64,000 nucleotides of DNA from Macrostomum hystrix (lineage: Eukaryota > Animalia > Platyhelminthes). Position numbers and translations under genes: made by a program. How positions within the stretch are numbered: the stretch's first letter is position 1; the number at the start of each line of letters is the position of its first letter. The stretch is taken from positions 18,600,001 to 18,664,000 of the forward strand of contig CATNEN010000001.1 in the NCBI GenBank assembly GCA_950097015.1, given 5' to 3'. The notes below the pieces were generated by a model. It saw only the letters and a list, made by a program, of their open reading frames with translations, was not told the origin of the DNA and ran no database searches. Below, in pieces: positions 1 to 34,271 of the stretch.

Positions 1-1720
1 ATATAGCTATATAACAGTTTCTTTCTTTCACTGTTTCAATAGAATAGGCACTTGTGAAAGCCCAAGAATAAACAGAAGTTAGACTTGAAGTATCTAGAGC
101 AGAAAATAGGAGTTGTAACCTAGCTATATAGTATATAGGCATTTAAGCCTCACTTGGTACAATTCATTATAATATGGTGCAAAAATATGTATTTTTTGCT
201 AAATAAAAGTAAATGTACACTATGCGCTTTAAAGTAACTCTCTTTTTGTAAAAAATATTCCTGTGGCTTCATAATATATCCTAACTAAGCTACAATGACA
301 TTGCTGATCAAATAGACTTTCACTTAATAATTAACTTATATATAGATAAACCACAAAGTGATGGCGAGTTTGATATCGGTGTTTATATTCACTTTGTCTT
401 GTCTAATGAATTTCAGTGTCTTACTGTGAACAGTTTTTGAGAATTCGTTGATCGAATCGAGAATTCTCACGTACATAATAGCTAATTAATTGAGGATCCG
501 GTCAGGTCAAAGTGAAAGTTTGCAGTGCATGCGCTTTCAAAAACTTTGCTCAGGCCATTCTTTCGCTTTTAAGCTGCAATTTGAAACTAAAAAAATTGAT
601 TCTGACTTCTTATTAAGTTTAGTGCAACTGGCTTCTTCTGAGACAAAACTTTTTATTGCCTGCGGTCAAAATACATGTGTTTGTTAAATTTTACATTCAC
701 GTCGCCTTTTTACGGACTCAAATCGGACGGAAAACGGACCATCACAATTATGCGATTTCTACCTATTCTATATACTCCTAAATACATAGCTATTCGAGAT
801 GTAATGCAATTAAAGCAGTTGCCGCATTATCAATCATTTTATACGGCTATTGAGCGGTTTACTGCAGACGGCCGGAATATGCATGGCCGACCAGAAGATC
901 GAATTGTATACACGCTCAGAATAGTTTGATGATTCCACTATATACTCGTAAATTGCTTCACTGATGCACACAAATTTTATTTCCTAGCTCTCACTGATCA
1001 GTAAAACAGTAAGTATATGTGTAAATAATTTATATCTAAAAACTAAATATTACGATTATACAAACCAAACATTTAACTTGCTGCACTACTAACGTTTAAA
1101 TACGAGTAGTATTTCAAGCATGTTAGGTTCTGTACAGTAGATCAAAAAATTACCTTTTGCGGACTGGAATCGGACTGTTGGAATTACACAATTTTTCATC
1201 TTTTAAATGCATAAGTAACGGAAAATAAAGCCTTTTATGACGTTTTCAGCAGCTAACTCAAGAATTTTTTTATGGAACATCGTCCTCCTCGTCGCCCTTT
1301 TGAGGACTCAAAACGGACCGCGGACGCGTCGGCCTTTTGCGGACTAATTTCGGACTGTACGAATTACACATTTTTTCATCTTTTAAATGCATTTAGAACT
1401 GAAATCAAGGCCTTTTAAGACGTTTTTAGCAGCTAACTCACGAGTAATTTTTTTTGGAACATCGTCCTTCTCGTCGGCCTTTTTCGGACTCAAATCGGAC
1501 CATTTTGGAGCCGGTCGACGCGTCGGCCATTTTCGGACTAAAATCGGACTGTACGAAGTACACATTTTTTCATCTTTTAAATGCATTTATAACTGAAATC
1601 AATACCTCTTAAGACGTTTTCAGCAGCTAATTCGATTTTTTTTTAGCTGAGCTGACATAGGGTTAGATCGGACCGTAGGCGTCGAAAAGACGTCTTTTCG
1701 ACGATGCTTTTTACACCGGG
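1..1720 (-). mobile_element. Terminal arm of a DNA transposon (probably CMC/EnSpm-like); the element lies upstream of 1720
   Basis: Reverse complement of 24905-26563 with scattered substitutions and indels. Ends ...TTTTACACCGGG at 1720, exactly where the BEL pol remnant begins. Has ~185-bp subterminal tandem repeats (~1150-1640) and a 24-bp perfect palindrome (1680-1703). Confidence 0.7.
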
Positions 1721-3171
1721 AAGCGACACAAAGGAAAGTGACTGGCGGTTAAGCCCAGAGCGGTTTTCGAGCTACCGCAAATTGCGCAGCGTGACGGCAT
1801 GGGTTCAACGTTTCATCAGCAATTGTCGACTGCAAAAAGATCAGAGGAGAGTGGAAGAGCTCGAGGTTGCCGAGTTGCAAGATGCCGAGGAGGGGATTCT
1901 GCAAATGGCGCAAGAAGAGACATTCAAAGCTGAAATTTAAAAAATCCGTCATGGAAGGCCAGTCTCGTCAACCAGTCAACTCCGCTGTCTTCAACCGTTC
2001 CTAGACAAAGAGGGGCTTAATGCGAGTTGACGGAAGGTTAAAGTTCGACCAGGCGAAGCTGGGTGACGAAGCTTTTAGTGAAGTGCTACCATGAAGATCA
2101 AGGGCATGGCGGGACCAACCAGACGCTGGCAGCGCTGTCGACGAAGTTTTAGCTGATCAATGGGCGAGAAGCTATTCGTGAATGGGAGAGAGAGTGCGCG
2201 CGGTGCAGAAGGCAAAAGGCTAGGCCCGAAGTACAGCAGATTGCGCCACTACCTGAGGCCAGGCTGAAGAACTCGCTCCGCGCGTTCAGCTACATTGCGG
2301 CGGACTTCGGTGGTCCGTTCGAAACTATTCAAGGACGAGGAAAGCGAAGGATGAAGCGCTATCTGGCTCTCTTCACTTGTCTAGAGACGAGAGCAGTGTA
2401 CCTGGAGATGGCCTACAGCTTGGACTCCGATTCGTTTCTTTCGCGCGCATGATCAACAGGAGAGGACGGCCACTCGAGGTGTACTCAGACAACGGCGGGA
2501 ACTTCGTCAAAGGAGAGCGAGAACTTCGGGAATACGAGCAGCGGGATAAGATCCAGCGAGCGGCAGCTGAGCGCGGCATCAAGTGGCGCTTCCAGCCTCC
2601 GGCAGCTACCCACTTCGGCGGCGCTCACGAGGTAATGATCCGCGCCGTCAAGCGAGCTGTCCTCGCAATCCTCGGCAACGCGGATATCACCGACGAAGAG
2701 CTGCACTCCGCCTTCACGGGCGCGGAGGCGCTAATCAACTCCAGACCGCTGACGTATCAAACTGCGAACCCGAGAGACGACACGCCACTTACGCCAAACC
2801 ATTTCCTGCACGGACAGCTGGGCGGCGACTTCGCGTCGGAGGTGGCGACCGACATCAGCGACAATCCGCGGCGGCGCTGGCGACGTGTGCAAGAACTGGT
2901 GCGGCACTTCTGGCATCGCTGGCTGCGAGAGTGGGTGCCGCAGCTCAACGCCCGGAGCAAGTGGGCCAAGCAGCAGCCGGACCTGGCAGTCGGTGACGTC
3001 GTGCTGGCGCTGCGGCCGGATGCGCCTCGAGGACACTGGCCGCTTGGACGAGTTCTCGATGTCTTCCCCGGACGGGACGGATACGTGCGCGCTGCCAGAG
3101 TAAAAACCAGCGGCGGCACCTTTGTGCGACCCGTGGCCAAGTTGTGTCTGCTGCAGCGGTGTGATGAGTGA
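1721..3171 (+). pseudogene. BEL/Pao LTR-retrotransposon pol remnant (integrase and C-terminal DUF5641-like region), frameshifted
   Basis: Motifs ECARCRRQKA, DFGGPF, YSDNGGNF, PPAATHFGGAHEVMI, EALINSRPL, LTPNHFL, FWHRWLREW, WPLGRV...DGYVR. Stops and frameshifts upstream of ~2440; 5' part cut off by the DNA-transposon end at 1720. Confidence 0.92.
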
Positions 3172-4435
3172 CAACTCCTGTTTATGGACTGTTTAGCTTG
3201 AATTGACTTAATTTGATATTTTTTGCGGTAGCGATTAACAATTTGCAATTGAAACGGTGAGGGTCTTTTGCTAGCCAGTGACCTGCCCCCTGGGGAGGAT
3301 TTTAGGAAACAAGGCAGCGGTGGAGACAATGGGTCCCAGCGCGAAGCTGCTCACGAGTTGTCACGAGATACAGCGGGGAAGAAGGGGAGAAGTCAAAGGC
3401 TGCAACTGAGTGGTCCTATTGGCCTCAGGCTGGCCAGTCCCACCCAACCCATAGGCCACAGGCATGACTGCCGTGCCTACCCCAAGCAGTGCTCGAAACC
3501 GGCTAAAAGTCTAAATGGATGTCGGACTACCCGCAAGCGGATAGGACAGGGCTAGATAGCCTACTGTCATCAGTAGCATGTTCGTAACTGACTCCTAACT
3601 TTGGTAGCAGTGGTCGACTCGGCCTAGGCTCTTGTCTTAGAAATGCGGAAAGGCTATCGGCAAAGCGGATAAATGATCGAAGGTAGCGCCACCACCCAAT
3701 GCGCCTACGTTGCCACCGCAGACATTTGGGAACTTGGGTCCCCGGAGCTCGCAGCTCCCAGTTTGTCACACAGATCTTAGACAAGCCGAAAAATAGAGCA
3801 TTCTGTAACTTCCGTTTTAGACTAGGGTGAAGACCCCAGAATGAATCGAGTCACGCCTCAACAGGGGATTCCTGAAACTGCGCTACAGTGGTCTAGAAAG
3901 GTGGTACTCAGAACCTGAATGAGAAATCCATAGCCAGAATCCTACTCATGAGACGTTAGACACATTCCGTACATTAGGCTACAGCCTACACATTAGATAA
4001 CTAGCAAATCCGAATCTGTGTGAGTTGAGGAAATCAGAGGCAGGAGAGATTAAGCTGAACACTGGCTGAGTGATTATGCAAGTAGGAAATTATTAGATCA
4101 CGCCCCTCGCTCCCATGGCCGCGGTTGCGAGAGGCGGGGAATAGAGGGAGAATTCAATTTGGCAAAGGAACTTGACGCGTACACTGGAATCCGCCGAGAG
4201 AGTGAGGAAAACCGGCCAAGAAATCCCCCACCTCTTAGGCAGAAATCCCCCACCTCTGGGGGCCGCCCGAGCCTCGCAAGGGAGCAATCCCTACCGAAAG
4301 ACGGCAACCCAAAGCCCAATGCTGTTTACCGCGGCGGAGGGTAGCTTCCTCGGAAGCTGGCTAGGGGTTTATCTAGCCCCCGACCGGTTACCCACCCATT
4401 TTTCTATATTTTTCGCCTCACCTTTCCAGCACTGC

Positions 4436-5371
4436 ATGAGTACTACAACAAATCCTGACTCGGCTCGGGAGCCGTCAATTCCCGCGGACGGGGGTCCGTC
4501 TATCCCCCAACCCTCCAACCCGGAGGAAAACCCAACTGCCGCGAACGCCGCGGTAAACTCTCAGCTCCAACCCGGAGCACTCAACTCCACCCCCCTACGG
4601 GGTGAGCCCACCGTCGAAGACTACCGCCTCGTCACCCACCGACGGCCGAATAGGCCCAACGTGAAAAACTCGGAGCGGAAGAGGCAGCAGCCGGATGACC
4701 GCACCGCCACCCCCCTTGACCCGAAAAGAACAAAGGGCAAAGAGACCACCGGCTCGTACGCCAAGGTTGCGGCCGAGCCGAAGTTTAAAATCTGCATCCG
4801 CGCCGAAAGCGGAACGCTGAGCGAGACCCAGACGACAGCTGCCACCAACAAGATCGACAGCTTCCTCTGGGACAATGACACACTCGACATTCAGATCGAG
4901 TCGATTCGCTACGCCAACGGCAATATCATCCTCACCTTTAAGGACGAGGCTTACCTGGAGAAGGCGCTCGCCTGCCTCCAGTGTATCGAGTGGGACCTCG
5001 ACGACTTGGCCCTTCCCAAGATCGTCGTTGAGCGAGCCCGCCCCCCGCCACCGTGCAAGCGTTACCGAGCCTTCTACTCGGGCCCGAGAACTATCGAGGA
5101 GATCCGTGCGCGACTCCTCAGCAAACACCCCGACCTACCGCAGGACGGAATCCGGGCCTTCAAGGAGGTCCCCGCCAAGGATGCAGCCGGCAAGACGCTC
5201 TACATGGGACTGTCTGCCGAATGGGAGGCCGCCCTGCAGAGGAGCGAGTTCGCCGTCTACATGGGAGCGTGGAAGGTCGTTTTCCACATTCTGTCCAGGC
5301 GCAGGCACACCGGCGGCGAGCGACGCCGAGGGGAATCCGAGAGCTCGGATGGCTCAGAGAACGATGCGTAA
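4436..5371 (+). CDS. LINE ORF1 (Gag-like, resembling LOA-clade/DUF4780-type ORF1)
   Basis: Open from ATG 4436, directly upstream of ORF2. Disordered N-terminus, then [15 protein letters not shown]...; the DUF4780 resemblance is from memory. Confidence 0.75.
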
Positions 5372-5401
5372 GCATGTTCTCAGCATCATGCCATCTGAAA
5401 C

Positions 5402-8400
5402 ATGATGAGGCGTGATCGTCTGAGGGCGGGTCCCACGGGCCAGCCCAGTGATGATCTTTCAACACGCAATACTACCAGTAATACACTTTCTTCGCTTACT
5501 GGTAACGCGCTAAATCTGCACATTGTCCAGATCAACCTGCATCATGCAACTGCAGCCTCAAATAATCTAACCGGCGTCTTCGATGGAAAAGACGTTGATA
5601 TCTACCTCATTCAGGAACCATATACCCGCAGAGGCAAGCCGGCCTGTTTGCCAAACGGGTACCAAACCCTTTATTATTGTACCGATGAAACTCCTAGGGC
5701 TATTGCCCTCGTGAAAAGTGACATACCAGTCACCATGATGCCCATGTACTGCTCTAAGGACATATGTACCTTCGCTGCTTTCGACGTAATTCTGGCGTCT
5801 GCCTACCTAGACATCCAGGAGGAGGTCCCGCCACCACGCTTGCAAGAGCTGGCTGACTTCTGCAACCTGGAGAACAGGAAGCTCATCATTAGCTGTGATG
5901 CCAATGCCCACAACACTGCATGGTCCAGCAGTGACACAAACAGGAGAGGTGACCTGCTCATTGATTTCATTAACGCCTCTACCATGCATATCTGCAACAG
6001 AGGCAGAAAGCCCACCTTTGTTATTTCTAACAGACGTGATGTTATAGACCTAACCTTGGCCTCTAGTAACGCCCTGAACCATGTCCAGAACTGGATGGTC
6101 AGGGACGACATACCCTCGCTCTCGGATCACTCGTACATTCAGTACCGAATCTCCGCCGAAGGATCCCGCCTGCCCTGCGCCGACCGCCCCAACCTGAAGA
6201 AGGCTGATTGGCCCGGGTTCCGCAGAGACCTAAGCAACCTCCTGGCCGAGGCAACCGAGGCCCTGCAGGGAACTGATCTGCCCAGCATCGAAAACCGCTG
6301 CAATACTCTCACTAACCTGTTACATACCGCCATTCGTGAAAACGCCCCCAAGGTAAAGCACAGGAAGAAATATTCGCCCTGGTGGAACCCCGAGCTCACC
6401 CGCTTGAAAAAGACCTCGCGCCGGCTGCAACGCCTTGCGCACAGCAGCAACACCCCGGTGGACTGGGAGAACTACCACTCTGCCCTAAGGATCTACAAAA
6501 GCAGCATCCAACGGGCGAAGAAGAACACCTGGAAGGCCTACTGTGCCAGCCTGGAGGGTCAGCACCCTACGGCACGGCTGATCAGGTCACTCAGGCACGA
6601 CAACCTCGCTCAGTGCAACTCTCTCCTGCATCTGGACGGTAACTACACCAGCACCGCAGAAGAATCCTTAAATCTGTTATTCTCTACCTGTTTTCCACAG
6701 GTTGAAAACCCCGAAAATGTGGTGAACGACCACAGACCACAGGATCGCGACCTCTTTCAGCAATGCGCCTCGCCGAGCCTGCTGAGGCTAGCGGCTGACT
6801 CCTTCAAGCCTTTTAAGGCCCCAGGCCCGGACAAGATCAGCCCCTGTATCCTACAGGAGGCGCTTAAACTTCAGAGTTTCTCTGAAGCTCTCTCAAAATT
6901 GATCATTGACTGTTTTGTTACAGGCTACATACCTACCACCTGGAGAACCTCCAGGGTTGTCTTCATCCCCAAACCTGCGAAGGGCGACTATACCAACGTG
7001 AAATCTTTCCGCCCCATTAGCCTCACCTCCTTCTGCGTCAAGCTGATGGAAAGGCTCATTCTATGGAGGCTCCGAGACTGCGACCTGCGGTCAGCCCCCA
7101 TTAGTAAGTACCAGTTCGCTTTCCAACCTGGTAAAACTACCGAGCACGCGCTCCATGTTATTACTTCTGCTATTGAGAAAGCCATCCTTAGCAAGCAACT
7201 CGCTCTCGGGCTGTTTGTTGATATCGAAGGGGCCTTTGACAACGTCAACTTTGGCTCCTTCAGAGATACCCTTTCAGACAGAGGCGTCAGACCCAGCATA
7301 ACTCGCTGGATCGACTTCATGATCCGCAACAGATCCGTTACCTCCACGCTCATGAACATCACCTGCACCCGCGCAGTGATGAAAGGTGGCGCCCAGGGCG
7401 GTGTGCTTACCCCGCTGCTCTGGAACCTCGTCATGGACGAGCTCCTGACGGCTGATGTACCTAGCAGTGTCACCAGGGCCGGCTATGCCGATGACGTCGC
7501 CGCGGTGGTCAGCGGGCCAGACACCAGCACCCTGCGTAACCTGCTATAGCAATTCGCCAACAAGGCAGGAAACTGGGCCACCCAGCATGGCCTCAAAATC
7601 AGCGTCACCAAGACGGTAGCAATTGTCTTCACTCGAAAACGTAAGTGGGACATGCAAAACCTCACCATGTATGGTAGGAACATCCCTTTCGAAAAGGAAA
7701 CCAAGTACCTAGGTGTAACGCTCACGCACGATCTGCGCTGGACAAAACACCTTGGAAACATCATCGGACGAGCAAAACGCTGCTTCGCCCAAGTTCGTAG
7801 GGCCATTGGACCGACCTGGGGCCTCACCCCGAGAACGGTCCGCTGGATCTACACCGGTATCATTAGACCGAGTATTACGTATGCGAGCCTCATCTGGTCC
7901 AGCGTACTGGAACAGAAAACCGCCCGCGACCGACTCTACCAGCTGCAGGGCAGCATCTGCCGTGCCATTGCAGGTGCGTACCCCTCCACCCCATACGAGG
8001 GCCTTAATACTATCTTAAACATGCCTCCGCTCTATTTGTTTATTAGGGCGGAGGCTATGAAGTGCGCCTACCGGCTTATCTGCGATAAATCCATTAAGAA
8101 TACGCCAACCGGATTTATTCCTGACAAATCTCTCATTCCGCATCTGGACTATGTCCGCCGTGACCTTGCACACATCCACATCGACCCCAACGATGTGGAT
8201 AGCCAGCCTCCCTCCCTCATCCTCAGGAGGGGTTTTAGCGCCGTCATCCCTGACCGTGGTAGCACTCAGCTGGACGTCGGCGTAAACCAGCGCAGCCAGG
8301 GTATCCACTGCTTTACCGATGGCTCGCTGAGCAACGGCCTAGCCGGAGCAGGCATTGCCATCTTCCATGAGGGTAAGGCGCTCCTTCAGGAGAGCCTTCA

Positions 8401-9205
8401 CCTTGGTGAGAACACGTCGGTCTTCCAAGCCGAAATCTACGCCATTAACCAATGCGCCAAACACCTCCTCAATGCCAACGTCAGCAGATTCAACATCTGC
8501 ATCTATTCTGACAGTCAAGCCGCCCTCAAGGCTCTGTCTGCCGTCAAACTCTCCACTCGGACGGTCTCTGACTGCCACCGAGACCTGCAGTCACTCGCGG
8601 TCCTTAACAGGATCAGCCTAATCTGGATCCCAGGCCACAGCAACATCCTTGGCAACGAACTCGCGGACAAACTCGCCAAGGATGGCAGCAACCCGGACAA
8701 CAACCACCGCCCGATCAGGGTACCGGTACCTAAATCCCTCATCAACCGCACTGTTGACAGGTGGCTAAATCAGCAACACCAGCTCCACTGGAGTAGCTGC
8801 ACCGACTATAGGCAGACCCGTATGGCCATGCCGATCATTAACCGAAAAGTCTCTGACTTTTTGATTTCACTTAATAGAACTGACCTCAGGGAGATGTGCA
8901 TGGTCATCACGGGCCATGGCTTCTTCCAGAGACACATTTCGCTACAAACTGGCTGCTCCCCCACCTGTCCCTTCTGTGGCATAGGTAAAGAAACCGCTGC
9001 GCATCACGTGACATTCTGCCCCTACTTCGATAAGGCGCGCAACTGGCACCTCGGCCACCCGCAAGGGATGGACGAACTGACCACTCCGGACAACATCCGA
9101 GACCTTCGCGCCTTCGTCCGTGACACCGGCCGGATGAAGGTCGCCGACGCCTCCCCGGCGAACCTGCCGACTGCTGGCGTGGGGTGGGCGCACCCCCAAG
9201 GCTGA
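5402..9205 (+). pseudogene. LINE ORF2 (APE endonuclease, RT, RNase H, CCHC finger) with a single in-frame TAG at 7547-7549
   Basis: QINLHH, IQEP, DANAH, SDH (APE); [32 protein letters not shown] (RT); [33 protein letters not shown] (RNase H); CPFC...H...C. ORFs 5402 and 7652 are in the same frame. Confidence 0.95.
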
Positions 9206-10633
9206 GGCCACCTTCCTTTTACCTTGGGGTTGCGATAGGGGCCTCGCGGCCTATTCGCGGCGTCTCGCCCCCCGCCAGTAGTAGTAAGTAAGTAAGTAGG
9301 CAGAAATGCACACGCTACATCCCGCATTTAGCTCGCAAATCCCTAGCTCCCTACTACTCTCATGCGCGCTTTACAGTTGCCTTCCTGCCGCAGCCTTCAG
9401 CTCGGCCGTGCCAGAGCCCATCCCCCTAGTAAGTTAGCCACTCATGGTTGAGGGCTGTCTAGCGAATAAATAAGAGGAAGAGAAATGCATAGTGAGAAAG
9501 GTTTAAGTTCTTGTTAAATTAGCCCGATGAGTTAAATGATTGCCGTGAATAGATAGTTTATTAGGCTAAAACAAATCTTTGCCCTCGCCCCAATTGCCCA
9601 CTAGCTAAATTAGGATCCCTTAGGGATAACAATTAATAACCGCTGCGCGGGTTACTTATCTGCGATGCTGGTTGACAGGCTGCAGGCGGTTGTTCTCGCT
9701 GGGAAGGGCAATTGAAAGAGGAAGTAGGGACGGGGGTGTCTAGTGCAATTGGCAAGGGGCCAAATCGCAGGAGCACACGGCTCAATTGGAGCTCACCCAA
9801 AGAGGTGGCTTAAATGCTCAGGGGCTATGCAGGTAATTTACCTGTGGCTGTTCTCAGGAGCCTCAGGCTCAGGGGCTAAGTTCTAGACTTTCAGGGGGAG
9901 AGTCCACGGACCGGGTTCCGGGACTAGACCGGGGGAGTGACAGGGAGGAGAAGCTCTCGCTCCGGGGAGGAAAAAGTTTAAGGTTGGGGGAAGGTCCCTT
10001 TTTTTAGGGGCAGCGCAGCGCGCTTTCTTAAATAGTCCTGCAGCTCCGTCAACCTCGCATTCATCAAGATAACCCACATGCTCGCCAGCCTGTCAGCGAG
10101 GAATCGGGTCGGCATTACGCCACCCCAATTGCCCACTGAAGCGGCGGCGAGAATCGCCAGATGCCCCACTAGGAGCGTCTGCCGGCAGTCGGCCAATGAT
10201 TGTGATCCCGCCGGGATATGGGAAGCGCAGGCGCCGACCTGCCTATAGTGTCGTTACATGTATCTAAAGGGGGAAAGGTCATAATCGAGCTTCGGCTCGG
10301 GTTACAGTAAAGAAGAGGGGGACATGAAGAATTACTGCTCACTCTAGACGCATGAGTGATCCCTAAAATCTGATCGCGGTTTGGAGGGGAATCATGACCT
10401 AGACTAGTCCATACAGTATTGCTATGGCCGCGATCAGTCACTTCTACAGGGGACTAGACAGATCCGAGACAAGGGGAATCGGCGGCTACTTAATTCACCT
10501 CCGCCCCAAGTCTGGCCCGAAGATTAATGATGGTGTCCTGCGGCCAGCTGCTATCGCGATTATTGACTTGCTAAAAATGGAAAAATTTGGCTGGCTCACA
10601 TCCCCACTCGATTCCGCAGCACACTCCACATCA

Positions 10634-10653
10634 CTCCACCTTCGCTCACTTTC
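10634..10653 (-). promoter_or_regulatory. Polypurine tract
   Basis: Minus strand GAAAGTGAGCGAAGGTGGAG abuts the 3' LTR. Confidence 0.7.
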
Positions 10654-11625
10654 ACGTAAGGCACTTCGTGCTTACTGTCAGTAGTGGGGTGTCTCGCGAA
10701 TCGAGGGGGCAAAAAGACTTACATTACCCTACTGCATACCGTAAAGAATCCTAAGAAGAAATCCGCTAGAGAAGAAATCCTAGGTTATCGTACGACAATA
10801 CTGCTATAAATAGATTTTGTGCGAGAGTGTAAAAGGTCGGCGCCCCTAGCGACTAAGGGATAGAGTCCTGAGGGGAGGTGGGTGCGCATTCCGGCTGAGT
10901 TAAAGTTGTTCTCGCTGCCCAGGGGTGCCGTGTCCCGGCTCGCCTTCTCCTCCAGGTGGCTGCAGCTGTCCCCGTCTTTCCTTGCCCGGCTTGGTCTCGG
11001 TTGCGCAATCCTGGGAGGCTCCGGCCGTTTTCTCCTTGAGTCCGAGGGTCCGGCCGTGCTCTTCTCCAGGTGGCTCCAGGTTGGTTGGCCCGTTCGCGCC
11101 TTCCCGATTCCGTTGCCGGGCCGTGGTAGCCTCTGATTCGCCGCGCGCCCAGGTGTTTTCAGCTGGCCGGGCCCGAAAATTCTCGTCGGGCCGGTTGCCT
11201 AGCCGTTGCGCGCGGCCCAATCGGCGCTGCAGCTGGTCGCAGCTGGGAAAAACCGCTGCTCAGGCCGCTTTGCGATGCTGTTGCCGGCCGCAGGGTTTCC
11301 TCACCGAAAAGGTCAGGGCCCCAACAACTAAACTGTTACCATGGGCCCCCTAAACTGGTTCTGCCCGGAATTCCCACTTTGCTCCCATTGGCTAGCCGTT
11401 AGACCGCCACGTCTCCCTAAATTAGCCCTATAAAAACAACCTCTTGACGCCCCATTAACCTCAAGCCTGTTATCTCTCCAAACAATCACCTAACCTACAG
11501 CAAGCTTTTCTAAATTCTCCTCGGCTAACCGCTAAGCTGCAAAAAGTAACCTTCGAGAGTTGCCTGCAATCGCCACCTAGTCTGCGTCGCCCGATCGCTT
11601 AATTACGTGCTCTGATTCTTGCACT

Positions 11626-12223
11626 ATGGCCCAGCCGCAGTCTGGAGAAGAAAGGTGAGTTATTTGACTTCTACTCGGCCCCCCAAGGCCGGTTATTAAG
11701 GATAATTGCGAGGGTTTTGTCATAATAATTAGAATAAACAGAGTCCCCCTTACCCACGGCACGCCTACTTACCCCAAAAATTTGAAATTGACCCCGGCCC
11801 AACAGTGTGAAAAACCCCTCCTTAGTTACCGATTGGTTAAATTGAGAGTTATTTAGATTGTAATTTCCCACACTACCCCCTCTCTTCTTTCAGTGACTAC
11901 CTACCCGGATTTTTAAATCCGCCTCGGCGCCGGGCCAGCTCCGGCGAGCCTATAGCGATGTCAATTATTCTGAGTAAGTTTAATCATTAATGTGCCGACA
12001 CTCCCGCACTTCTCTCCCGCCCGCGCTTCGCTATTCGAGACTCTATTGACTAACTACCCTTCTCTTCCACCTTACTCCTGCAGACATGAACGTGCCCGAG
12101 GGCCGCGAAGAGGATGTTGCCGCCATCGCACTTGGCTTCATCCGGGGCCCACTGGGCGTGGCCCTGGCGGCCGGCATCTTCGCTGTCGCTCTGGCGCTGG
12201 CTGTAATCGCCTTCCTACTGTAA
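11626..12223 (+). CDS. Spliced 82-aa protein with C-terminal transmembrane segment, antisense within the LTR element (exons 11626-11654, 11894-11973, 12084-12223)
   Basis: Donors GTGAGT and GTAAGT, pyrimidine-rich CAG acceptors, matching phases (2, 1). TATAAAA at ~11429 and AATAAA at ~12353. Product MAQPQSGEESDYLPGFLNPPRRRASSGEPIAMSIILNMNVPEGREEDVAAIALGFIRGPLGVALAAGIFAVALALAVIAFLL. Confidence 0.72.
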
Positions 12224-12499
12224 TAACCTGGCGCCCACTACCATTTCTGGGCCGGCCACGCCACGTGACGCTGCCCTGCCTAAATTTTTTTTTACTAACT
12301 TGACTATGCCTAACTTTTCAACAACGAATGGTGCTACCGCTCTGGGTTTATAAATAAAATGTGCCAACTTAACATCTTCTGCCATCAATATTTGAATGTG
12401 CGAAATAGAACTCACTATCTTTACCCGACTTCTTTCCTAGATGAAACATTACTACTCAAGTTTTACAACCGCCCACTCTTTAAACAAACATTAAGAAGA

Positions 12500-13075
12500 A
12501 AATTCCCGAAACATACCACCCCGCTCACTTTAGCGGGTTGGTATACCCCCTAAATAGAAGCCGGTATAGCTAAACTCCCGAAACCAAGCATAGAGAACAT
12601 GTAAGATAAGCAAGTTTGCGAAAAGTAGGTGCGAACCCTAGTTTGCGGCAGTTAATACAAAAATGTTTCATGCGAAAATTCTTACGAAGGGGAATTTCAC
12701 CCCACTAAGTATGTTTTTGGATTTTGATTAGTTTATAATAGTTTTTAAGAGGTTTTGGCGCCGAGATGGCCTTTTTGATTTGAACCGCCTTCCCTCCCCT
12801 AAAGAAGCATAGAATTTCCCAAGGCATACCACCCCGCTCACTTTAGCGGGTTGGTGTCCCTCCTAATTTAGAAGCTGTCCTAAATTGAACTCCCACAGAC
12901 CCACCAATATGAAACAAGATAAGGCAGAGGTGCCATGCATGATGTGGTGCGAATAAAAGTAAAATGCTCTTTGAGAAAAGAAGGTGCATACCCTAGTTTG
13001 CTACAATTAGATAAGCATCTCATGCGAACAAATACTAGGGGAATTTCACCCCACTATGTGTATTTTTGTGGTTTT
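12500..13075. repeat. Two diverged ~230-bp direct repeats with a conserved hairpin inside the LTR element
   Basis: CATACCACCCCGCTCACTTTAGCGGGTTGGT at ~12512 and ~12825; GGGGAATTTCACCCCACTA at ~12689 and ~13038. Confidence 0.75.
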
Positions 13076-13324
13076 GGCTAAAATTCTAAGAGTTTTTTTT
13101 GTGTGAGATTTTTGCCAAGGCGGCTTTAGATGAAAAGGGAAAACATGCACAATAGGAGGAAAAGAACAAACGGTGCAGAGTGCGAATTATTACTAAAAGG
13201 AAAAGGAAGAACGGAAGGGAGGGTAGCTCGAGGAAAAAAAAGGGCTCAGGCGAACAAGGGATGTCGAATCATAAGCTGTTGACCCCTGTGCTCCCTGCGA
13301 AAGTTCCAGAAACTGAAAGTCCCC

Positions 13325-13936
13325 TTACTCCGGTCCTGCTTCTCCCCTATCTTCCACTTCCTCCCCAATAGCTGTGCTCTCTGCCTCCACTCCACTTTCT
13401 TCTTCTCCATCCATTAACCTTACCATGCGGCCGAGGGTACTATTGCCCGGCGGCGACAGCGAGGCGGCTGAGCTCCCCAGCTCCCAGCTCCTTCCAGGCA
13501 CAGAGCTGTGTCCTGACTCCTGAGTCGGGCCGGCTTCGCCGCGTTGCAGCCACAGTCTCACCAGCTGATGTTCGAACTCAGCCCTGCCCGGAATCCAGGT
13601 TGACCGCAGCCAGGGCACTAGGGCTTCCGGCACCGACATGCCCCATTCTTCCGGCGGGCTGTACTCCGGCCACCGGAGGTACTGCGGCAGGGCTTCCTCG
13701 TACTCGTCCCGCGGCGGACAGGGGTCTCGCTCTTCTCCCCACGCTTGCGCCAGCCAACGCGACTCCGCCAGCCGGCAGGCGAGGGCGAGGTCCACGCCCA
13801 CTTGAGCTGCTTGTCCTAGCAGTGGCAGCAACCACAGGCGGACCATTAGCCAGGTGCGCCTGCCAGCGAGTTCTCGGCGGCAGTCAGTTGCAGCTACATC
13901 GAGCCACCATGCTAAAGCCATCTCTCTACTTGCCAT
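13325..13936 (-). CDS. ORF3 of the LTR element, 203-aa Trp-rich protein of unknown function
   Basis: ATG-initiated intact ORF in env-like position downstream of pro; 12 Trp; acidic tail; TTTAG|GC acceptor-like site just before the ATG. Confidence 0.55.
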   Translation of the reverse strand: MASREMALAWWLDVAATDCRRELAGRRTWLMVRLWLLPLLGQAAQVGVDLALACRLAESRWLAQAWGEERDPCPPRDEYEEALPQYLRWPEYSPPEEWGMSVPEALVPWLRSTWIPGRAEFEHQLVRLWLQRGEAGPTQESGHSSVPGRSWELGSSAASLSPPGNSTLGRMVRLMDGEEESGVEAESTAIGEEVEDRGEAGPE

Positions 13937-14082
13937 GCCTAAACTAGTTTCTTGGTCTTTTAGCGAGAGTAAACTTTCCCTACTTAATTTTCCCGGCCCT
14001 TACTTGAATAAGTCGACAACCAGAGAAGGGGTGGGGTGGGCGAGGAAAGAAAATTGTGATTAACCCTAGGTCACGGTGACCC

Positions 14083-14634
14083 TCATTTAAAAATAGCCTT
14101 CCGCCTGAGTGAAAATGGGAGAAATTGGCGATAAATGATTAATTGGCGCGAGTCAAAGTCAATGATGGCATGATGGTGAGCCAACCAGGAGGCGCCGAGC
14201 AGGGGAGAGCAGTCGCCCTCAACCACTAGGAACAGTGTGTCCAGCGCTTCGGTGCCAACCTGTAATTTGACTTTGACCTGCGCCTGTGCAACAATTGGTG
14301 TGCCATTGTAAGCAAAAAGGGAAAATTGCGGGGGTTCGAATGGGTAGTGTCGGAAGATCGATGACAACGAGCCCGGGAGCACATTCACCATGGACCCAGT
14401 GTCGATAAGGAGGTCCAGGGGTGCCCCATCCACCTCCAAGGCTACCCACACCTCACTAAGCTTCTCAGAGCGATTCGGGCGGGTGCGCACTTGGGTGGGG
14501 ACTCGGCCGAGTGAATTCACTCGGACTTCTCGGAGGTCGGAGGCGGCGGTTGCCGCCGCTCCGACGGTCGGGCTGCGGGCTGGGTCGCGGAGCCGTTGGC
14601 CTGCCTCCAATTGGCGGCCCCGTTCCCATTTCCC
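14083..14634 (-). CDS. Retropepsin-like aspartic protease, expressed as Gag-Pro by -1 frameshift
   Basis: LLIDTGS...PLLGASWL motifs; -1 frame overlapping the gag 3' end; terminates at 14083 with no RT downstream. Confidence 0.88.
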   Translation of the reverse strand, partial: GKWERGRQLEAGQRLRDPARSPTVGAAATAASDLREVRVNSLGRVPTQVRTRPNRSEKLSEVWVALEVDGAPLDLLIDTGSMVNVLPGSLSSIFRHYPFEPPQFSLFAYNGTPIVAQAQVKVKLQVGTEALDTLFLVVEGDCSPLLGASWLAHHHAIIDFDSRQLIIYRQFLPFSLRRKAIFK

Positions 14635-15575
14635 ATCGCCACCTCACGATTCGCTTCTCTAGCGGCCCCGTGTTCTGCACGCTTCGGGTGCCACTGATGC
14701 CCGGTTGGGTGTGGGCAGAGAGGGGGGGTGGGGTTGGGCTTGGCTTCCCGCAGCTGCTGAGAAATCTCAGCTAGCTGCTGGGTCACCTTGGTTAATTCTG
14801 CCAACAGCCTGTGCTGCGGCTCTGGCTGATCCGGTTCGTCATCTAACTCTGTCCTGATTTGGCGCACCCGCCGGCGAGGATCCCGCTCCACCGCCATTTC
14901 ATGCGCCTGCGTGGCAGCACGCAGTTCGGCGGCGGCGGCCTCAGCCGTGGCAAACTCCATCCGCATGATGGGTGCCAACACCTCGGGTGGGGCCACTATC
15001 CCCTCCATAAATGAGGCCAACAAGGCGCGCTCGAAGTGCGCACCGTGGCCGTTGGGGGTGGCCTGCAGGGCCGCTGTTCTGAGTCTATCGGCGAAGGCGG
15101 GGTACGTCTCGTCCCGTCCTTGCTTCAAATTACGCCCACTCAGCAACCGGGCGTAGGGGGTGCAGGCGCCACTAAGGGCCTCGGTCAGATCCTGCACGAA
15201 TCTAATGTAGGTCACCCGGCGGGGCAATCCTAGCGCCTCGGTGAGGGGCTCGCCACTCAGGTGAGCGAGGAGGGTGAGGATCTTTTCCTCCTCGGTTTCA
15301 AGGGCCTCCGCCTCCAGCTTCAGGCTGAATCGGCGCAGCCAGAGGGGAAAAGAATCCTCCCGGGACTCATACGGTTCAATGGCGACTTTGACCCGGTGAT
15401 TCCGAGGTCGCCGCACTTCTAATCGCTCTAAAAGCAGCGCTAGGCGCTCCACAGGGTCGGCTTGCTGTGCTGCAGCAGCCGCTGGGGGTTCGGCGCGCGC
15501 CGCAGCTGCGGCGCGGCCTCTGGGTGAGCGGTTGACTCCAACCACTTCCACCACCTCACCCTCCTGGTCGGACAT
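14517..15575 (-). CDS. Gag (capsid-like) of the Gypsy-like element
   Basis: Intact ORF from ATG 15575; capsid-type signatures (FPLWLRRF, LLAHLSGEP, LKQGRDETYPAFADRL, FMEGI). Confidence 0.85.
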   Translation of the reverse strand: MSDQEGEVVEVVGVNRSPRGRAAAAARAEPPAAAAAQQADPVERLALLLERLEVRRPRNHRVKVAIEPYESREDSFPLWLRRFSLKLEAEALETEEEKILTLLAHLSGEPLTEALGLPRRVTYIRFVQDLTEALSGACTPYARLLSGRNLKQGRDETYPAFADRLRTAALQATPNGHGAHFERALLASFMEGIVAPPEVLAPIMRMEFATAEAAAAELRAATQAHEMAVERDPRRRVRQIRTELDDEPDQPEPQHRLLAELTKVTQQLAEISQQLREAKPNPTPPLCPHPTGHQWHPKRAEHGAAREANREVAMGNGNGAANWRQANGSATQPAARPSERRQPPPPTSEKSE

Positions 15576-16888
15576 TTTCGGCCAAAAGAGGAATGAGGGT
15601 TTTGCGAATGAAAAAGAGGGGGGGTCTGTCGCTAATGCAACAATGGGGGAGGGGAGGAAAAGGAAAACACAGATCACGACCGGAGATCGTGCGGGGGGAA
15701 AGAAAAACGAGCCTGAGCTGTGAAGTCACCAGCCCTGATTAATTATGTGGGTGAATTCCTACTCCTAGCAACCCTACAGCAAAAAGGCAATTAAAGGTCA
15801 ATTAGAGAGAAAAAGGGCCCAGGGCCCTGGCTAGCTTTGCTTCCAGCCTTGGCCTCTGACAACTGTTTGCGCGCACTGAAGTTTGGGACATAGAAGTCTA
15901 GGTTTTAACTTAGCACTCGTTCTGCAATCCTATAGCGGACTGTTACACTATAGGTACGGCGGAGTCAGCACCACCACAGGCTTGCGCCTGCAGCAGCCTG
16001 CCCAAGGGTCATCAGCCGACCTAGGAAAGCCGGATCTACTGCATATGGCAGCTTCCCATATCACCCACATGTCACCTCGATGGGTAGACTATATGGGGTG
16101 CTCTGTCCAAGGTCTTTGGCCTACCCACCCCACCTCGGAAAGTACACGATCCAATAGGGTTCATTTCAAGAAGGGTCAATCCCCGGTGCTAGGGGAGTCA
16201 TCGGTTCCTGGCTGCATTGCCAGGGGCTCCCGTCGCTCGGTTAGAAGGCCGTAGGGACAATGCCCGGCTCTTTGTTAAGACTGGCCCAACCTGGTCTCCC
16301 TGTAGCCTAAGAGAACCGTGCCGACCAAATTCTAGCCCGTCCTTAGGGTCGAACAAGAGACTATGCACAGCTTCGGGGCGCTAGCGCGGGTGTCGTTAGA
16401 CTCGACGGCTGCTTTCTGGAAAACGGTATGGTCGCCGGATCCCAGCCCCCTAACAGGTCCTTGCCTAAGGCAGACTTGGTCAAAGTTATGCAGCACTTTC
16501 GTATGCGAGTACTCGGAAGCAGGCCCCCCGCGACACCGGTAAGTCAACGTTTATACTAGGAACCCATCAGGCAGTACTACGCATCCTACGGTAACCACAT
16601 AACCCGAAGACACTCTAGCATGAAATCCGCTCACACAGCCTACTCTTAGTAGAAAGACACTAATCAGAAATTTTTGAGATTCTAACAAAAACCTTACATT
16701 AGATTGAAATCAATTTGCAACTGTTCAAAGAATTAGTTGACAGTTACTAGAGCTGAAATTCGGTCTTTAGAGATAAGATTCCGGCATACGGATAATGAAA
16801 TCTAGAAGGAGCCCTTACGGCTAGCTACTACAGAAATCTGCAGCGCTAAACTAAATTGAAATTTCAAGTTCGTTTCGCGCCCTTTCTA

Positions 16889-16909
16889 GATCCCACCTCG
16901 ATGCCACCA
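16889..16909 (-). promoter_or_regulatory. Primer binding site (tRNA-Leu-like)
   Basis: Minus strand reads TGGTGGCATCGAGGTGGGATC starting 2 nt inside the 5' LTR boundary; resembles the complement of a tRNA-Leu 3' end (TGGTGGCAGCGGTGGGA), imperfectly. Confidence 0.7.
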
Positions 16910-16911
16910 TT

Positions 16912-18664
16912 TGAAACGGTGCGGGTCTTTTGCTAGCCAGTGACCTGCCCCCTGGGGAGGATTTTAGGAAACAAGGCAGCGGTGGAGACAATGGGTCCCA
17001 GCGCGAAGCTGCTCACGAGTTGTCACGAGATACAGCGGGGAAGAAGGGGAGAAGTCAAAGGCTGCAACTGAGTGGTCCTATTGGCCTCAGGCTGGCCAGT
17101 CCCACCCAACCCATAGGCCACAGGCATGACTGCCGTGCCTACCCCAAGCAGTGCTCGAAACCGGCTAAAAGTCTAAATGGATGTCGGACTACCCGCAAGC
17201 AGATAGGACAGGGCTAGATAGCCTACTGTCATCAGTAGCATGTTCGTAACTGACTCCTAACTTTGGTAGCAGTGGTCGACTCGGCCTAGGCTCTTGTCTT
17301 AGAAATGCGGAAAGGCTATCGGCAAAGCGGATAAATGATCGAAGGTAGCGCCACCACCCAATGCGCCTACGTTGCCACCGCAGACATTTGGGAACTTGGG
17401 TCCCCGGAGCTCGCAGCTCCCAGTTTGTCACACAGATCTTAGACAAGCCGAAAAATAGAGCATTCTGTAACTTCCGTTTTAGACTAGGGTGAAGACCCCA
17501 GAATGAATCGAGTCACGCCTCAACAGGGGATTCCTGAAACTGCGCTACAGTGGTCTAGAAAGGTGGTACTCAGAACCTGAATGAGAAATCCATAGCCAGA
17601 ATCCTACTCATGAGACGTTAGACACATTCCGTACATTAGGCTACAGCCTACACATTAGATAACTAGCAAATCCGAATCTGTGTGAGTTGAGGAAATCAGA
17701 GGCAGGAGAGATTAAGCTGAACACTGGCTGAGTGATTATGCAAGTAGGAAATTATTAGATCACGCCCCTCGCTCCCATGGCCGCGGTTGCGAGAGGCGGG
17801 GAATAGAGGGAGAATTCAATTTGGCAAAGGAACTTGACGCGTACACTGGAATCCGCCGAGAGAGTGAGGAAAACCGGCCAAGAAATCCCCCACCTCTTAG
17901 GCAGAAATGCACACGCTACATCCCGCATTTAGCTCGCAAATCCCTAGCTCCCTACTACTCTCATGCGCGCTTTACAGTTGCCTTCCTGCCGCAGCCTTCA
18001 GCTCGGCCGTGCCAGAGCCCATCCCCCTAGGGCTTTAGGGGCAGCGCAGCGCGCTTTCTTAAATAGTCCTGCAGCTCCGTCAACCTCGCATTCATCAAGA
18101 TAACCCACATGCTCGCCAGCCTGTCAGCGAGGAATCGGGTCGGCATTACGCCACCCCAATTGCCCACTGAAGCGGCGGCGAGAATCGCCAGATGCCCCAC
18201 TAGGAGCGTCTGCCGGCAGTCGGCCAATGATTGTGATCCCGCCGGGATATGGGAAGCGCAGGCGCCGACCTGCCTATAGTGTCGTTACATGTATCTAAAG
18301 GGGGAAAGGTCATAATCGAGCTTCGGCTCGGGTTACAGTAAAGAAGAGGGGGACATGAAGAATTACTGCTCACTCTAGACGCATGAGTGATCCCTAAAAT
18401 CTGATCGCGGTTTGGAGGGGAATCATGACCTAGACTAGTCCATACAGTATTGCTATGGCCGCGATCAGTCACTTCTACAGGGGACTAGACAGATCCGAGA
18501 CAAGGGGAATCGGCGGCTACTTAATTCACCTCCGCCCCAAGTCTGGCCCGAAGATTAATGATGGTGTCCTGCGGCCAGCTGCTATCGCGATTATTGACTT
18601 GCTAAAAATGGAAAAATTTGGCTGGCTCACATCCCCACTCGATTCCGCAGCACACTCCACATCA
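16912..18664 (-). repeat. 5' LTR (1753 bp, internally deleted)
   Basis: TGAAACGG...CCACATCA followed by the TSD CAAT; direct repeat of the left LTR. Confidence 0.93.
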
Positions 18665-20010
18665 CAATTACAGCTCATCATTGCTAGTTCTTCGGTTGCT
18701 TGAAGTTAATTTATTTTGTTTTTCAGTGACAGCGATTTTCGTCATGATTGCTTTCTTGTGGTGGGAATCTTGCGTTTAATTTTGACACTGTTTTATGCTT
18801 CTGCTGCTTGCACGCTTCAGCGTTCCGAAAGTTTCTTTTTTCTAATGCGCTTGGTTTTGAGTTTGCACACGGTACAGTATAGGATGCTTCTCATTAATTT
18901 AAGTTTTTTCGGGCTATGCGATCTTAGTTCTCACAAAAATTTAATATTTTTTTTCAATATATATTTTATTAGTTACGTTTGTTTAAGGACGCGAAATGTC
19001 CTATGAGCTGTTTTTTTTACAGAATTAGTGGAATTTTAATAGATGCGAGGCGTTTGGTTTGTTGAAAGTTTTTAAGAAGCTTTTTGCGGGTTCGCTGCTG
19101 TCTATCTGCTTGTCTTTGGTAGCATTGCTTGTTACTACTCGTAGTTATGTTGCGTCGACCTAGTTTCGTTTTTTGGCCTATTTCGCTAGCTGTTATGCGT
19201 TTGGCTTCCAGGTTTTGCTGATGGCAGTTTTGTTTGAGATGTTTTTTGCGCGAGTCTGCTTCTTAATCATTATTTCTTTATTGAATTTTGCCAAGTTATT
19301 CGGATAGCTAGCGCGTATTGCATATCCTAGTTTTTTTGCAATGCGTCAATTCAATTCGTACATAGAATTATTTTTCGTTTCGATTGCAGCGAATTTTCTT
19401 AATGCGTAAACCTTTGTTAGTCGTGTTTTTTCAATAAGTTTTTCAAGTTCTCATCAGAGCTACTGTATTAGCAGGTTGACTTATCGGTTTCTCATTCACA
19501 ATCATTTTGCTTTTTTTAGTTTTTGGTGTCAGCGTTATCTGCGAAATCTGCTAGTTTTTTCCTGATAGAGTGCTATCAGGAATGGGGGTATGTTGTGAAG
19601 GCTTTTCCCTCTTTTGTACTGTATATGTACGCAAGTCCACCACTCAGCCTACTCCGCCTGCCCCACCCCATTTTTGATTTGAGGTTGGCCGCACTGGAGC
19701 TTTTATAAATGTGGAATGTTGACTTATAATAGTTAAGGAGTTGTTTTTCGCGCTCAGCGTTTTTTGTGGCAGATTATAGTCAATTAACAAATTTACGAGT
19801 CATCGTTGTTGAAGCCTTAATTTATCTTATAGTCTGCTGAACACTTTCCACGCTCTGTTCCATAGGTTCTTTTAGGTAGGTAATAGTATAGTCAGTAGTA
19901 TCTTCTCCAAGTTAGGTATTTTTGGAGTCTGGAACTGCGCGGTTGCTCATAAACTGCGAATCTTGCTCACACATACTTGCTCTGGTTAAATTCAATGCTC
20001 GCTACTCACC

Positions 20011-24372: not shown

Positions 24373-24904
24373 CAAGTGCCGCAGGGACTATCAGCTCCGG
24401 TTTTCAACCTTCTGCTGCCAACGGTAACTGGCAGGGGCTACGTGGTTTATTTTGATACACAAAAACTGACTCTGATGCCCCTGTGACATTATTAATTCAG
24501 CTCTTGTTGCAAATAACTTAGAACATATGGCGCTTTGCTCAAACTAGACTTGACAAAATTGAAATAAAATATAGAGCGAAGGGGGAGCTGCTTAACTTCT
24601 CAAAACGCTAGTCAATTGAAACTAGAAAATTAGATTTCCTTTAAACAACCCAATTTTAAAAAATCGATTGAATCGCAATATTTTAGGATTTTTTTCTGTT
24701 TTATGAAAATACGAGTATTCTGTTTGATTAACGGAACAAATGAGTGCAACGCAGTGAAATGTACTTGTTATTCCTATCCTCAAAGCAGTCCCAGCTATTA
24801 TTGTTCTGCAGCTAGAGCTAAATGTGAGTGCTACGCTCGTACTTACTGTTTCGAATAAATGAAAAGCTCAACTCATTTTTCGATGAAAATTCGATCTTTG
24901 CCTT

Positions 24905-28178: not shown

Positions 28179-28982
28179 CTCACATGAATGCAGCAGACCA
28201 AATAACCCTAGCTAGTACCAACAGCTAGAAATAGCTAGTGAATGCTATAATTTTTATGACACATTAGGGTCTGACATACAGAGGTAGTATATATGTTTAG
28301 TAAGTTTTTAAGTTAAAAAATACATGCATAGTACCTTTTTAGACAAACTGAACCTGTACACATGTATTATTTAAACCAATGGCTCAAAATTAATTTGAGT
28401 TACAATTGATAGTAGCTATCAATTGTGGGTTAGGTGTTTAGTATTTCACAAAAGGATCATGATTAGTCAAGCCCTTACTATGTGACCAGCAGTTCTCAGA
28501 TGCACTGATGTAAGGAAAGCAGTTGCTATAGGTAGTACTGCCTTAAGCCAGTCAAAAATGCCACCATTCCAGCTAGTGTGATAAGTACCTGTTCAATAAT
28601 GTTGAATATTTTAATAGCTGAAAAACTTATTACTATCAGCCATTTAAATTAGTCTGATAAAAAATGTTCGAGCTACAATTAAAACCAGTAACTCACCAGT
28701 CAGCTGAATTTATTTAATAGAACACTCTTGCCGAAACCTAGTCTTGTTTCGTCTGTCTTTGAATTTCTTTTATTTGTTTAATTCCTTCGAGATTCTTTTG
28801 ATTGCTTCTCATTTGATTCGTCTGAGATTTCAGTGCTGAGCGCTCTTAAAAATCGATAATCATACAAAGATCTGTTCATACGATCTTGATTAAAAAGATA
28901 CAAATTTGAGTAAAACCACTTAATTTCAGATAAGTGGAATTCCGTTTTATTGGAAAATATGGAAAGGAAATATGGAAATGAT

Positions 28983-34269: not shown

Positions 34270-34271
34270 TC

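What the first reader, a model, noticed from the sequence alone, without database searches (positions are those of the whole stretch)
11626..12223. Intron-containing antisense gene for a small membrane protein inside an LTR retrotransposon
Seen: its own TATA box, two canonical introns, a poly(A) signal and an 82-aa product with a PPRRR basic patch and a C-terminal hydrophobic anchor of ~25 aa. Antisense orientation explains how the introns survive reverse transcription. Inference: an accessory gene, possibly analogous to small transmembrane or fusogen-like proteins used by some env-less retroelements, or a membrane-targeting factor for Gag particles.
Basis: partly seen in the sequence, partly recalled or inferred. 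Interest (0 to 1): 0.85.

Follow-up and report, generated by a model that had tools for sequence, protein, structure and literature searches.

The report
Backwards membrane-protein gene in defective retrotransposon
A young jumping gene that lacks its own polymerase, probably from a flatworm-like animal, carries backwards near its end a likely real two-intron gene for a small protein predicted to hang in a membrane by its tail; backwards extra genes are already known from plant and fungal elements, and this one lacks the layout of the known cell-fusion proteins.

Summary
At 11626-12223 (+) there are a TATA box, an ATG-free leader, two GT-AG introns, an 82-codon frame and AATAAA. The donor of intron 1 and both acceptors are the strongest + strand sites in the element's 6.3-kb interior; 1 of 900 shuffles gave as good a model. 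Exon 3 is coding-like; exons 1-2, with the PPRRR patch, are not beyond chance. The gene lies antisense, next to the 3' LTR, in a young Gypsy-type element (LTRs 99.8-100% alike, 4-bp TSD) that encodes Gag, protease and a sense orphan ORF but no RT, RNase H or integrase. Its nearest named Gag relatives are Macrostomum elements (24-28%). The product ends in a 35-residue hydrophobic helix with no tail, so it is predicted to be tail-anchored and fails four of five sORF2/FAST features tested. Best reading: an element-borne accessory gene of the known antisense-ORF kind, likely a membrane tether for the element's particles. One copy only: no expression, conservation or homolog could be shown. The scan has noted spliced antisense genes in LTR elements of other genomes, mostly fungal; none of the notes I saw was for a membrane protein.

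The parts
3250..18664 (-). Non-autonomous Gypsy-type LTR retroelement (TG...CA ends, 4-bp target duplication CAAT at 3246-3249 and 18665-18668)
   Evidence: no RT/RNase H/integrase in the interior
16912..18664 (-). 5' LTR; lacks a 573-nt segment present in the 3' LTR
16890..16909 (-). Primer-binding site (begins TGG, 2 nt from the LTR)
   Evidence: priming tRNA not identified (no tRNA gene in window)
14520..15575 (-). gag, 352 aa, zinc knuckle degenerate
   Evidence: 8 relatives at E<=0.001, 24-31% identity; 3 of 8 named Macrostomum lignano; alignment
14083..14643 (-). Aspartyl protease ORF in another frame, ending just after the domain
   Evidence: PF13975 E 2.9e-4, below curated cut-off; tblastn to P0005 E 1e-7
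13325..13936 (-). Sense orphan ORF3, 203 aa, no membrane helix; strong acceptor 170 nt upstream at 14105
   Evidence: coding-like, 0 of 500 shuffles; acceptor rank 2 of 468; no Pfam, no homolog, poor fold
12500..13097 (.). Diverged tandem duplication (73-87%) with an identical 31-nt hairpin in both units; candidate cis element
   Evidence: no Rfam match
11387..11435 (+). Promoter-like motifs: reversed CCAAT box and TATA box
   Evidence: 9 of 1898 window ATGs have TATA, clean leader and AATAAA at matching distances
11626..11654 (+). Exon 1 coding part, ATG in strong context
11655..11893 (+). Intron 1, 239 nt
   Evidence: best of 45 + strand and above all 47 - strand donor-acceptor pairs in the element
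11894..11973 (+). Exon 2, holds PPRRR; weak coding signal
11974..12083 (+). Intron 2, 110 nt, strong acceptor and branch-like motif, ordinary donor
12084..12223 (+). Exon 3 coding part: acidic patch, then 35-residue hydrophobic helix to the stop
   Evidence: GC3 0.76; 0 of 2000 shuffles; one helix, mean pLDDT 90
12353..12358 (+). Poly(A) signal AATAAA
10788..11259 (-). Coding-like sense stretch without a start codon, head to head with the antisense promoter; possible decayed gene
   Evidence: 2 of 500 shuffles
10634..10650 (-). Polypurine tract
3250..10633 (-). 3' LTR (about 2.3 kb), split by a LINE
4247..9296 (+). Nested LINE (endonuclease, RT, RNase H), 11-bp target duplication; not part of the LTR element

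Best explanation
A Gypsy-type element without its own reverse transcriptase carries, antisense between its last sense ORF and the 3' LTR, a two-intron unit that is likely its own accessory gene, predicted to make an 82-residue tail-anchored membrane protein that would tether the element's Gag particles to an internal membrane. Shown: gene anatomy, position, hydrophobic end, absence of RT/RNase H/integrase, near-identical LTRs. Established logic: the packaged genomic RNA is the minus strand, so + strand introns and the + strand poly(A) signal are not used on it and are copied intact; RT and integrase must come in trans from an autonomous relative; a single C-terminal helix with no tail is inserted after translation with the N-terminal part in the cytosol (recalled knowledge of tail-anchored proteins). 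Inferred: that the unit is transcribed and spliced, that it is a fixed part of the family rather than of this copy, and that the 47 cytosolic residues bind Gag or particle RNA. My odds: real gene now or recently 0.85; regular part of the element family 0.6; tether role 0.25.
For: Splice-site ranks and exon/intron GC pattern; best two-intron model in the window, 1 of 900 shuffles; spliced frame scores 13.7 bits against -9 to -50 for the other five frames and above 708 of 708 overlapping non-coding windows; exon 3 above 2000 of 2000 shuffles, its non-membrane part above 1995 of 2000; single long helix. Flanked by LTRs with 2 mismatches in 997 nt and none in 133- and 632-nt blocks, and an intact TSD; no terminal repeats bracketing the gene among the 20 direct families and 25 inverted pairs listed. 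Same slot, orientation and own-promoter layout as Grande gene23 and related antisense ORFs. The element keeps Gag and protease frames open, so it still makes particle proteins in principle.
Against: One copy only; no second copy in the window, none in metagenome contigs for the hairpin, no homolog of exon 3 among 137 candidates of 31-100 aa. Exons 1+2 have no coding bias beyond chance and exon 2 alone scores best in another frame. This locus rearranges fast (a LINE in one LTR, a 573-nt loss in the other), so a late insertion of the gene is possible. Sequence past the stop stays GC-rich and is borderline coding-like in another frame (90 of 2000), so the tail-less form may be peculiar to this copy. 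The Gag zinc knuckle is degenerate. Characterised antisense ORFs of LTR elements are nuclear or DNA-binding, not membrane proteins.
Confidence: 0.45

Rival explanations
1. Passenger: a small host gene (or one carried in by another transposon, such as a Helitron) was captured with its promoter, introns and poly(A) signal and does nothing for the element.
For: A complete promoter-to-poly(A) unit with host-type signals; the locus takes insertions readily; a GC-rich hairpin followed 12 nt later by CTAA lies downstream on the same strand, as at Helitron 3' ends (the Helitron rule is recalled).
Against: No homolog or family for exon 3; no bracketing repeats among those listed; similarity between the two hairpin units runs on past CTAA, so they look like a tandem duplication rather than element ends; transduced genes are usually sense.
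Confidence: 0.2
2. Shortened fusogen-like gene: the family form has a cytoplasmic tail behind the helix (N-out, C-in, like sORF2/FAST) and this copy is broken near its stop.
For: Acidic residues just before the helix; GC stays 0.63 for 60 nt past the stop; another frame is open from 12207 to 12350 and scores best there (90 of 2000 shuffles); size is within the 63-107 aa range of sORF2-like proteins.
Against: No myristoylation motif, 47-residue N-terminal part against about 30, antisense with own promoter whereas all 105 sORF2-like hits were sense; the past-stop signal is borderline; the frame ends in two stops in a row.
Confidence: 0.12
3. The antisense RNA is what matters (dsRNA or small-RNA self-regulation), or the gene is already decaying; the protein is incidental.
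For: Weak coding signal in exons 1-2; antisense non-coding transcripts are known from micropia and others; this copy's 5' LTR has lost a segment.
Against: Exon 3 is strongly coding-like and two introns keep one frame from a strong-context ATG to a stop.
Confidence: 0.1
4. Selfish membrane-active cargo: a small helix that oligomerises and harms or alters cells (poison, viroporin-like), giving the element a drive in stem or germ cells.
For: Unusually long hydrophobic helix with small residues spaced four apart; an alternative acceptor at 12440 would give a 73-aa product without the helix; flatworm Burro elements carry apoptosis-related domains.
Against: No family match; the alternative acceptor lies beyond the poly(A) signal; no partner gene identified.
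Confidence: 0.08
5. Chance alignment of signals in non-coding element DNA.
For: Post hoc search; strong-looking sites also occur on the other strand; 9 stretches in the six frames of the window reach hydropathy 2.5.
Against: Splice, coding, promoter and hydropathy signals coincide; 0 of 900 shuffles gave an equal model with a membrane helix.
Confidence: 0.05

Closest known systems
Antisense additional ORFs between pol and the 3' LTR (aORF-3R): maize Grande gene23, rice RIRE2, Silene Retand, bean PvRetro13 (PMC7264820, PMC11963269)
   Same: Gypsy element, antisense, in the 3' interior, own internal promoter (Grande), no known homolog; some Retand elements are non-autonomous and the region often holds tandem repeats.
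   Different: Those are plant elements with longer, nuclear or TRP28/SMC/PMD-domain products; the passages I read mention no introns. Here: animal host, two introns, 82-aa membrane-anchored product.
brtn of Boty-like elements, Botrytis cinerea (Zhao et al. 2011; seen only as cited in PMC7264820 and PMC8365987)
   Same: Antisense extra gene in a Gypsy element outside plants.
   Different: Fungal and autonomous; I could not read the paper, so its intron content and product are unchecked.
sORF2/FAST-like proteins of Drosophila MDG1-group and other insect LTR elements (PMC11952523)
   Same: Env-less LTR element with a small single-helix membrane protein of similar size.
   Different: sORF2 is sense, unspliced, with central helix, basic patch and tail behind it and mostly N-myristoylated; none of that holds here.
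Small transmembrane ORF3s and non-autonomous TelKA2n of bdelloid rotifer LTR elements (PMC5408684)
   Same: Invertebrate LTR elements with orphan accessory ORFs, one family lacking most of pol.
   Different: The Vesta4 ORF3 is 220-230 aa with two helices; the passages seen describe no antisense gene.
Macrostomum lignano Ty3/Gypsy elements (PMC12801592)
   Same: Nearest named Gag relatives.
   Different: That survey starts from RT, so RT-less elements like this one would be missed (inference); the words ORF and antisense do not occur in its main text.

Membership tests
Ty3/Gypsy LTR retrotransposon | LTRs with TG...CA, TSD, PBS, PPT | tested here: met
Ty3/Gypsy LTR retrotransposon | Gypsy-type Gag and aspartyl protease | tested here: met
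Ty3/Gypsy LTR retrotransposon | RT, RNase H, integrase in the order RT-RH-IN | tested here: not met
   none in 10635-16911: non-autonomous, clade cannot be set by RT
Antisense additional ORF (aORF-3R) | Antisense to gag, between the coding region and the 3' LTR | tested here: met
Antisense additional ORF (aORF-3R) | Own internal antisense promoter | tested here: inconclusive
   TATA and CCAAT motifs present; activity not shown
Antisense additional ORF (aORF-3R) | Present and conserved in most copies of the family | not testable with these tools
   no host genome held; no second copy found
Antisense additional ORF (aORF-3R) | TRP28, SMC or PMD domain, or nuclear product, as in plant members | tested here: not met
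   no Pfam match in exons 2 and 3; membrane helix instead
sORF2/FAST-like fusogen | Small (63-200 aa) with one membrane helix | tested here: met
sORF2/FAST-like fusogen | Central helix with a C-terminal cytoplasmic tail | tested here: not met
   stop follows the helix directly; whether sister copies share this stop is unknown
sORF2/FAST-like fusogen | Polybasic patch just C-terminal of the helix | tested here: not met
   basic patch is 25 residues N-terminal of the helix; acidic patch adjoins it
sORF2/FAST-like fusogen | N-myristoylation motif MGxxxS/T (most members) | tested here: not met
   residue 2 is Ala
sORF2/FAST-like fusogen | Sense to gag-pol, no separate promoter | tested here: not met
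   antisense with own TATA box
sORF2/FAST-like fusogen | Drives cell-cell fusion or capsid transfer | not testable with these tools
   needs an assay
Tail-anchored membrane protein (definition recalled) | No signal peptide, single helix at the extreme C-terminus | tested here: met
   hydropathy profile, fold of exon 3; no dedicated topology predictor was run

The most novel reading that the evidence does not exclude
An RT-less Gypsy satellite of a flatworm-like animal has replaced pol with a kit of orphan accessory genes, among them a spliced antisense gene for a membrane protein unrelated to Env or FAST that moves or docks its particles at membranes, possibly between stem and germ cells: a third, independent route to an envelope-like function.
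Probability: 0.12. Interest if true: 0.8.

Novelty: new variant of a known kind. Interest (0 to 1): 0.45.

Why it matters
Antisense accessory genes of LTR elements are widespread and their function is an open question; the described ones are mostly plant or fungal and nuclear. A small membrane-anchored, spliced example in an animal would widen the class and is easy to test (82 residues, one helix). It would also show that RT-anchored and ORF-length-based surveys miss both such elements and such genes. Nine literature searches listed no paper whose title, abstract start or read passages described a spliced antisense membrane-protein gene in an animal LTR element; the library lacks most subscription journals and Repbase reports.

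Tried and rejected
No host genome is held, so copies could not be collected. No RNA holder was listed for 10700-14000; this says nothing about expression, and no reads could be laid. Word-indexed searches found nothing for Gag (7995 candidates), exon 3 (137 candidates, 31-100 aa only) or ORF3 (693 candidates); longer forms were not searched. Neither Gag nor ORF3 is in the collection as an exact sequence. The protein atlas gave no answer. The 31-nt hairpin had 0 exact matches in metagenome contigs; a scan with P0003 gave 3 loci matching only the zinc knuckle, which I did not use. Rfam over 9200-18800: 1 chance-level match. PDB sequence search of exon 3: 5 matches, best E 0.39. ORF3 fold was uninformative (pLDDT 42); no fold search was run on it or on the single helix. 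No verdict on self-association of the helix: the complex job did not run. Lack of AATAAA on the sense strand of the interior (0 seen, 1.7 expected, 19% of 500 shuffles also 0) is not significant. Rejected: exon-2-skipping form (also 82 codons, but in the poorly scoring frame without a helix); a sense-strand gene using 11772/11642 (no model among the 8 best one-intron models listed, none with two introns); a decayed RT in the interior. Of the Macrostomum paper's 5 supplementary files I saw only part 1 of 8 of file 5; the rest may bear on family assignment.

Full report
1. Observation. A TATA box lies at 11429, the leader holds no ATG, and AATAAA is at 12353. Scored with a recalled generic animal splice matrix, donor 11655 is the best of 297 + strand GT sites and acceptors 11893 and 12083 the best two of 390 AG sites in the element's interior; in the whole window 3 of 6577 donors and 6 and 14 of 8825 acceptors score as high, while donor 11974 is ordinary (309 of 6577). 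A scan for two-intron small genes over both strands of the window ranked this model first (26.7; next locus 16.2), and 0 of 300, 0 of 300 and 1 of 300 shuffles at three block sizes reached it, none with a membrane helix. The limits of that scan were chosen after seeing the gene. A three-periodic model trained on six other ORFs of the window, which picked the right frame in 6 of 6 leave-one-out controls, gave the spliced frame 13.7 bits against -9 to -50 for the other frames. The signal comes from exon 3 (0 of 2000 shuffles; 5 of 2000 for its non-membrane part); exons 1+2 are not beyond chance (212 of 2000) and exon 2 alone prefers another frame. Strong-looking splice pairs also arise on the opposite strand (14.8 and 12.1, against 16.7 for intron 1 and 10.0 for intron 2). 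I put the chance reading at about 5%.

2. The element. Self-comparison and end inspection define an element on the minus strand from 18664 to 3250, with TG...CA ends, a 4-bp duplication, a PBS and a PPT. The LTRs differ at 2 of 997 positions and at none in two further blocks of 133 and 632 nt, so the insertion is young. Since then a LINE has entered the 3' LTR and the two LTRs have come to differ by 573 nt; I read this as a loss from the 5' LTR because the segment holds a sense poly(A) signal. The 6.3-kb interior holds gag (352 aa), a protease frame, a 203-aa sense orphan ORF, a duplicated hairpin region, the antisense gene and a coding-like remnant; no RT, RNase H or integrase was found. The RT at 5399-9205 belongs to the LINE. 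Gag has 8 relatives at E<=0.001 among 1.84 billion representatives, 24-31% identical; 3 of the 8 are named Macrostomum lignano proteins, 1 is a JGI hypothetical protein and 4 are unnamed; they carry Retrotrans_gag or PNMA and mostly zinc-knuckle matches. This points to a flatworm-like host but does not identify it. The knuckle of this Gag is degenerate.

3. The product. Residues 19-23 are PPRRR, 42-47 are mostly acidic, and 48-82 are hydrophobic with one Arg. AlphaFold2 on exon 3 alone gives one helix of 38 residues at mean pLDDT 90, which for a lone hydrophobic peptide is expected and says nothing about function. No family, solved relative or homolog was found. With nothing behind the helix the protein should be inserted after translation, N-terminus in the cytosol (recalled rule for tail-anchored proteins). 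One caution: GC stays high for about 60 nt past the stop and another frame there is open and borderline coding-like, so this copy may be shorter than the family form; one copy cannot settle it.

4. Mechanism. The genomic RNA is the minus strand, so the gene's introns and poly(A) signal are ignored during packaging and copied intact; that the gene lies between near-identical LTRs with no bracketing repeats among those listed fits its being copied with the element, though a late insertion is not excluded at so active a locus. The element can supply only Gag, protease and accessory products and must borrow RT and integrase (inference). The simplest use for a tail-anchored protein with a short charged cytosolic arm in such an element is to dock particles at the ER or nuclear envelope; I give that step about 25%, the element-borne gene about 60%. 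Rivals: passenger gene (20%), shortened fusogen-like gene (12%), regulatory RNA or decay (10%), selfish membrane-active cargo (8%), chance (5%).

5. Comparison. It works, by layout, like the antisense ORFs between pol and the 3' LTR of Grande, RIRE2, Retand and Boty; Grande gene23 has its own promoter and a nuclear product, and the review calls for a look at antisense spliced transcripts (PMC7264820, parts 1-2 of 3 read; PMC11963269 and PMC4408406, passages; PMC8365987, passages; the brtn paper itself not held). Family-wide conservation, the feature that marks those ORFs as functional, could not be tested. It is not a member of the sORF2/FAST group: it meets size and single helix but fails helix position, basic patch position, myristoylation and orientation (PMC11952523, abstract, sections 7, 8, 10 and passages; PMC13486581, passages); that paper notes its own search would miss non-canonical forms. 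Rotifer elements with small membrane ORF3s and planarian Burro elements show that invertebrate LTR elements do collect accessory genes (PMC5408684 and PMC6431247, passages). The Macrostomum survey is RT-anchored (PMC12801592, parts 1-2 of 6, passages and one supplement part). PMC12477816 (passages) added nothing.

6. Earlier notes of this scan. None for this genome or sequence. Eight notes on other genomes describe spliced antisense genes in LTR elements, most of them fungal and cysteine-rich and one a zinc-finger/OTU gene; one describes a RING cassette in a flatworm element. They are unchecked leads; I followed only the pointer to Boty/brtn, as far as citing papers allowed.

7. Verdict. A likely real gene and an unusual element, but a variant of a known arrangement, resting on one copy with no expression, conservation or homology data. 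Interest 0.45.

Noticed in passing
window 13325-13936 (-): Sense orphan ORF of 203 aa in the env slot, Trp-rich with an acidic end, coding-like, with a strong acceptor at 14105; no family or homolog.
   Followed up: partly
window 10788-11259 (-): Coding-like stretch without a start codon, head to head with the antisense promoter; may be a decayed third accessory gene.
   Followed up: partly
window 12500-13097: Old tandem duplication in which a 31-nt hairpin is identical while the rest has diverged by 13-27%; candidate packaging or other cis signal.
   Followed up: partly
window 9430-10002: 573 nt present in the 3' LTR and missing from the 5' LTR; holds a sense-strand AATAAA and has intron-like ends on the + strand, but the 5' LTR junction is not an exact splice. 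This copy may have lost its start-site region.
   Followed up: partly
window 4247-9296 (+): Young LINE with endonuclease, RT and RNase H inserted in the 3' LTR; ORF2 is interrupted by one stop at 7547-7549.
   Followed up: no
window 2257-3171 (+): BEL/Pao integrase end (DUF5641, rve) just left of the insertion site.
   Followed up: no
window 3-1723 and 24902-26563: 1.7-kb inverted repeats (92%) that bracket the whole nest of elements.
   Followed up: no
window 43225-61337: Giant inverted-repeat element with tandem-array arms and a KDZ transposase domain at 54602-55135.
   Followed up: no
window 36264-41158 (-): SET-domain and DUF4218 ORFs, probably another large DNA transposon.
   Followed up: no
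window 34233-35350, 49385-49684, 28959-29132, 62494-63085: Tandem arrays of 18, 15, CAG-rich and 87-nt units.
   Followed up: no
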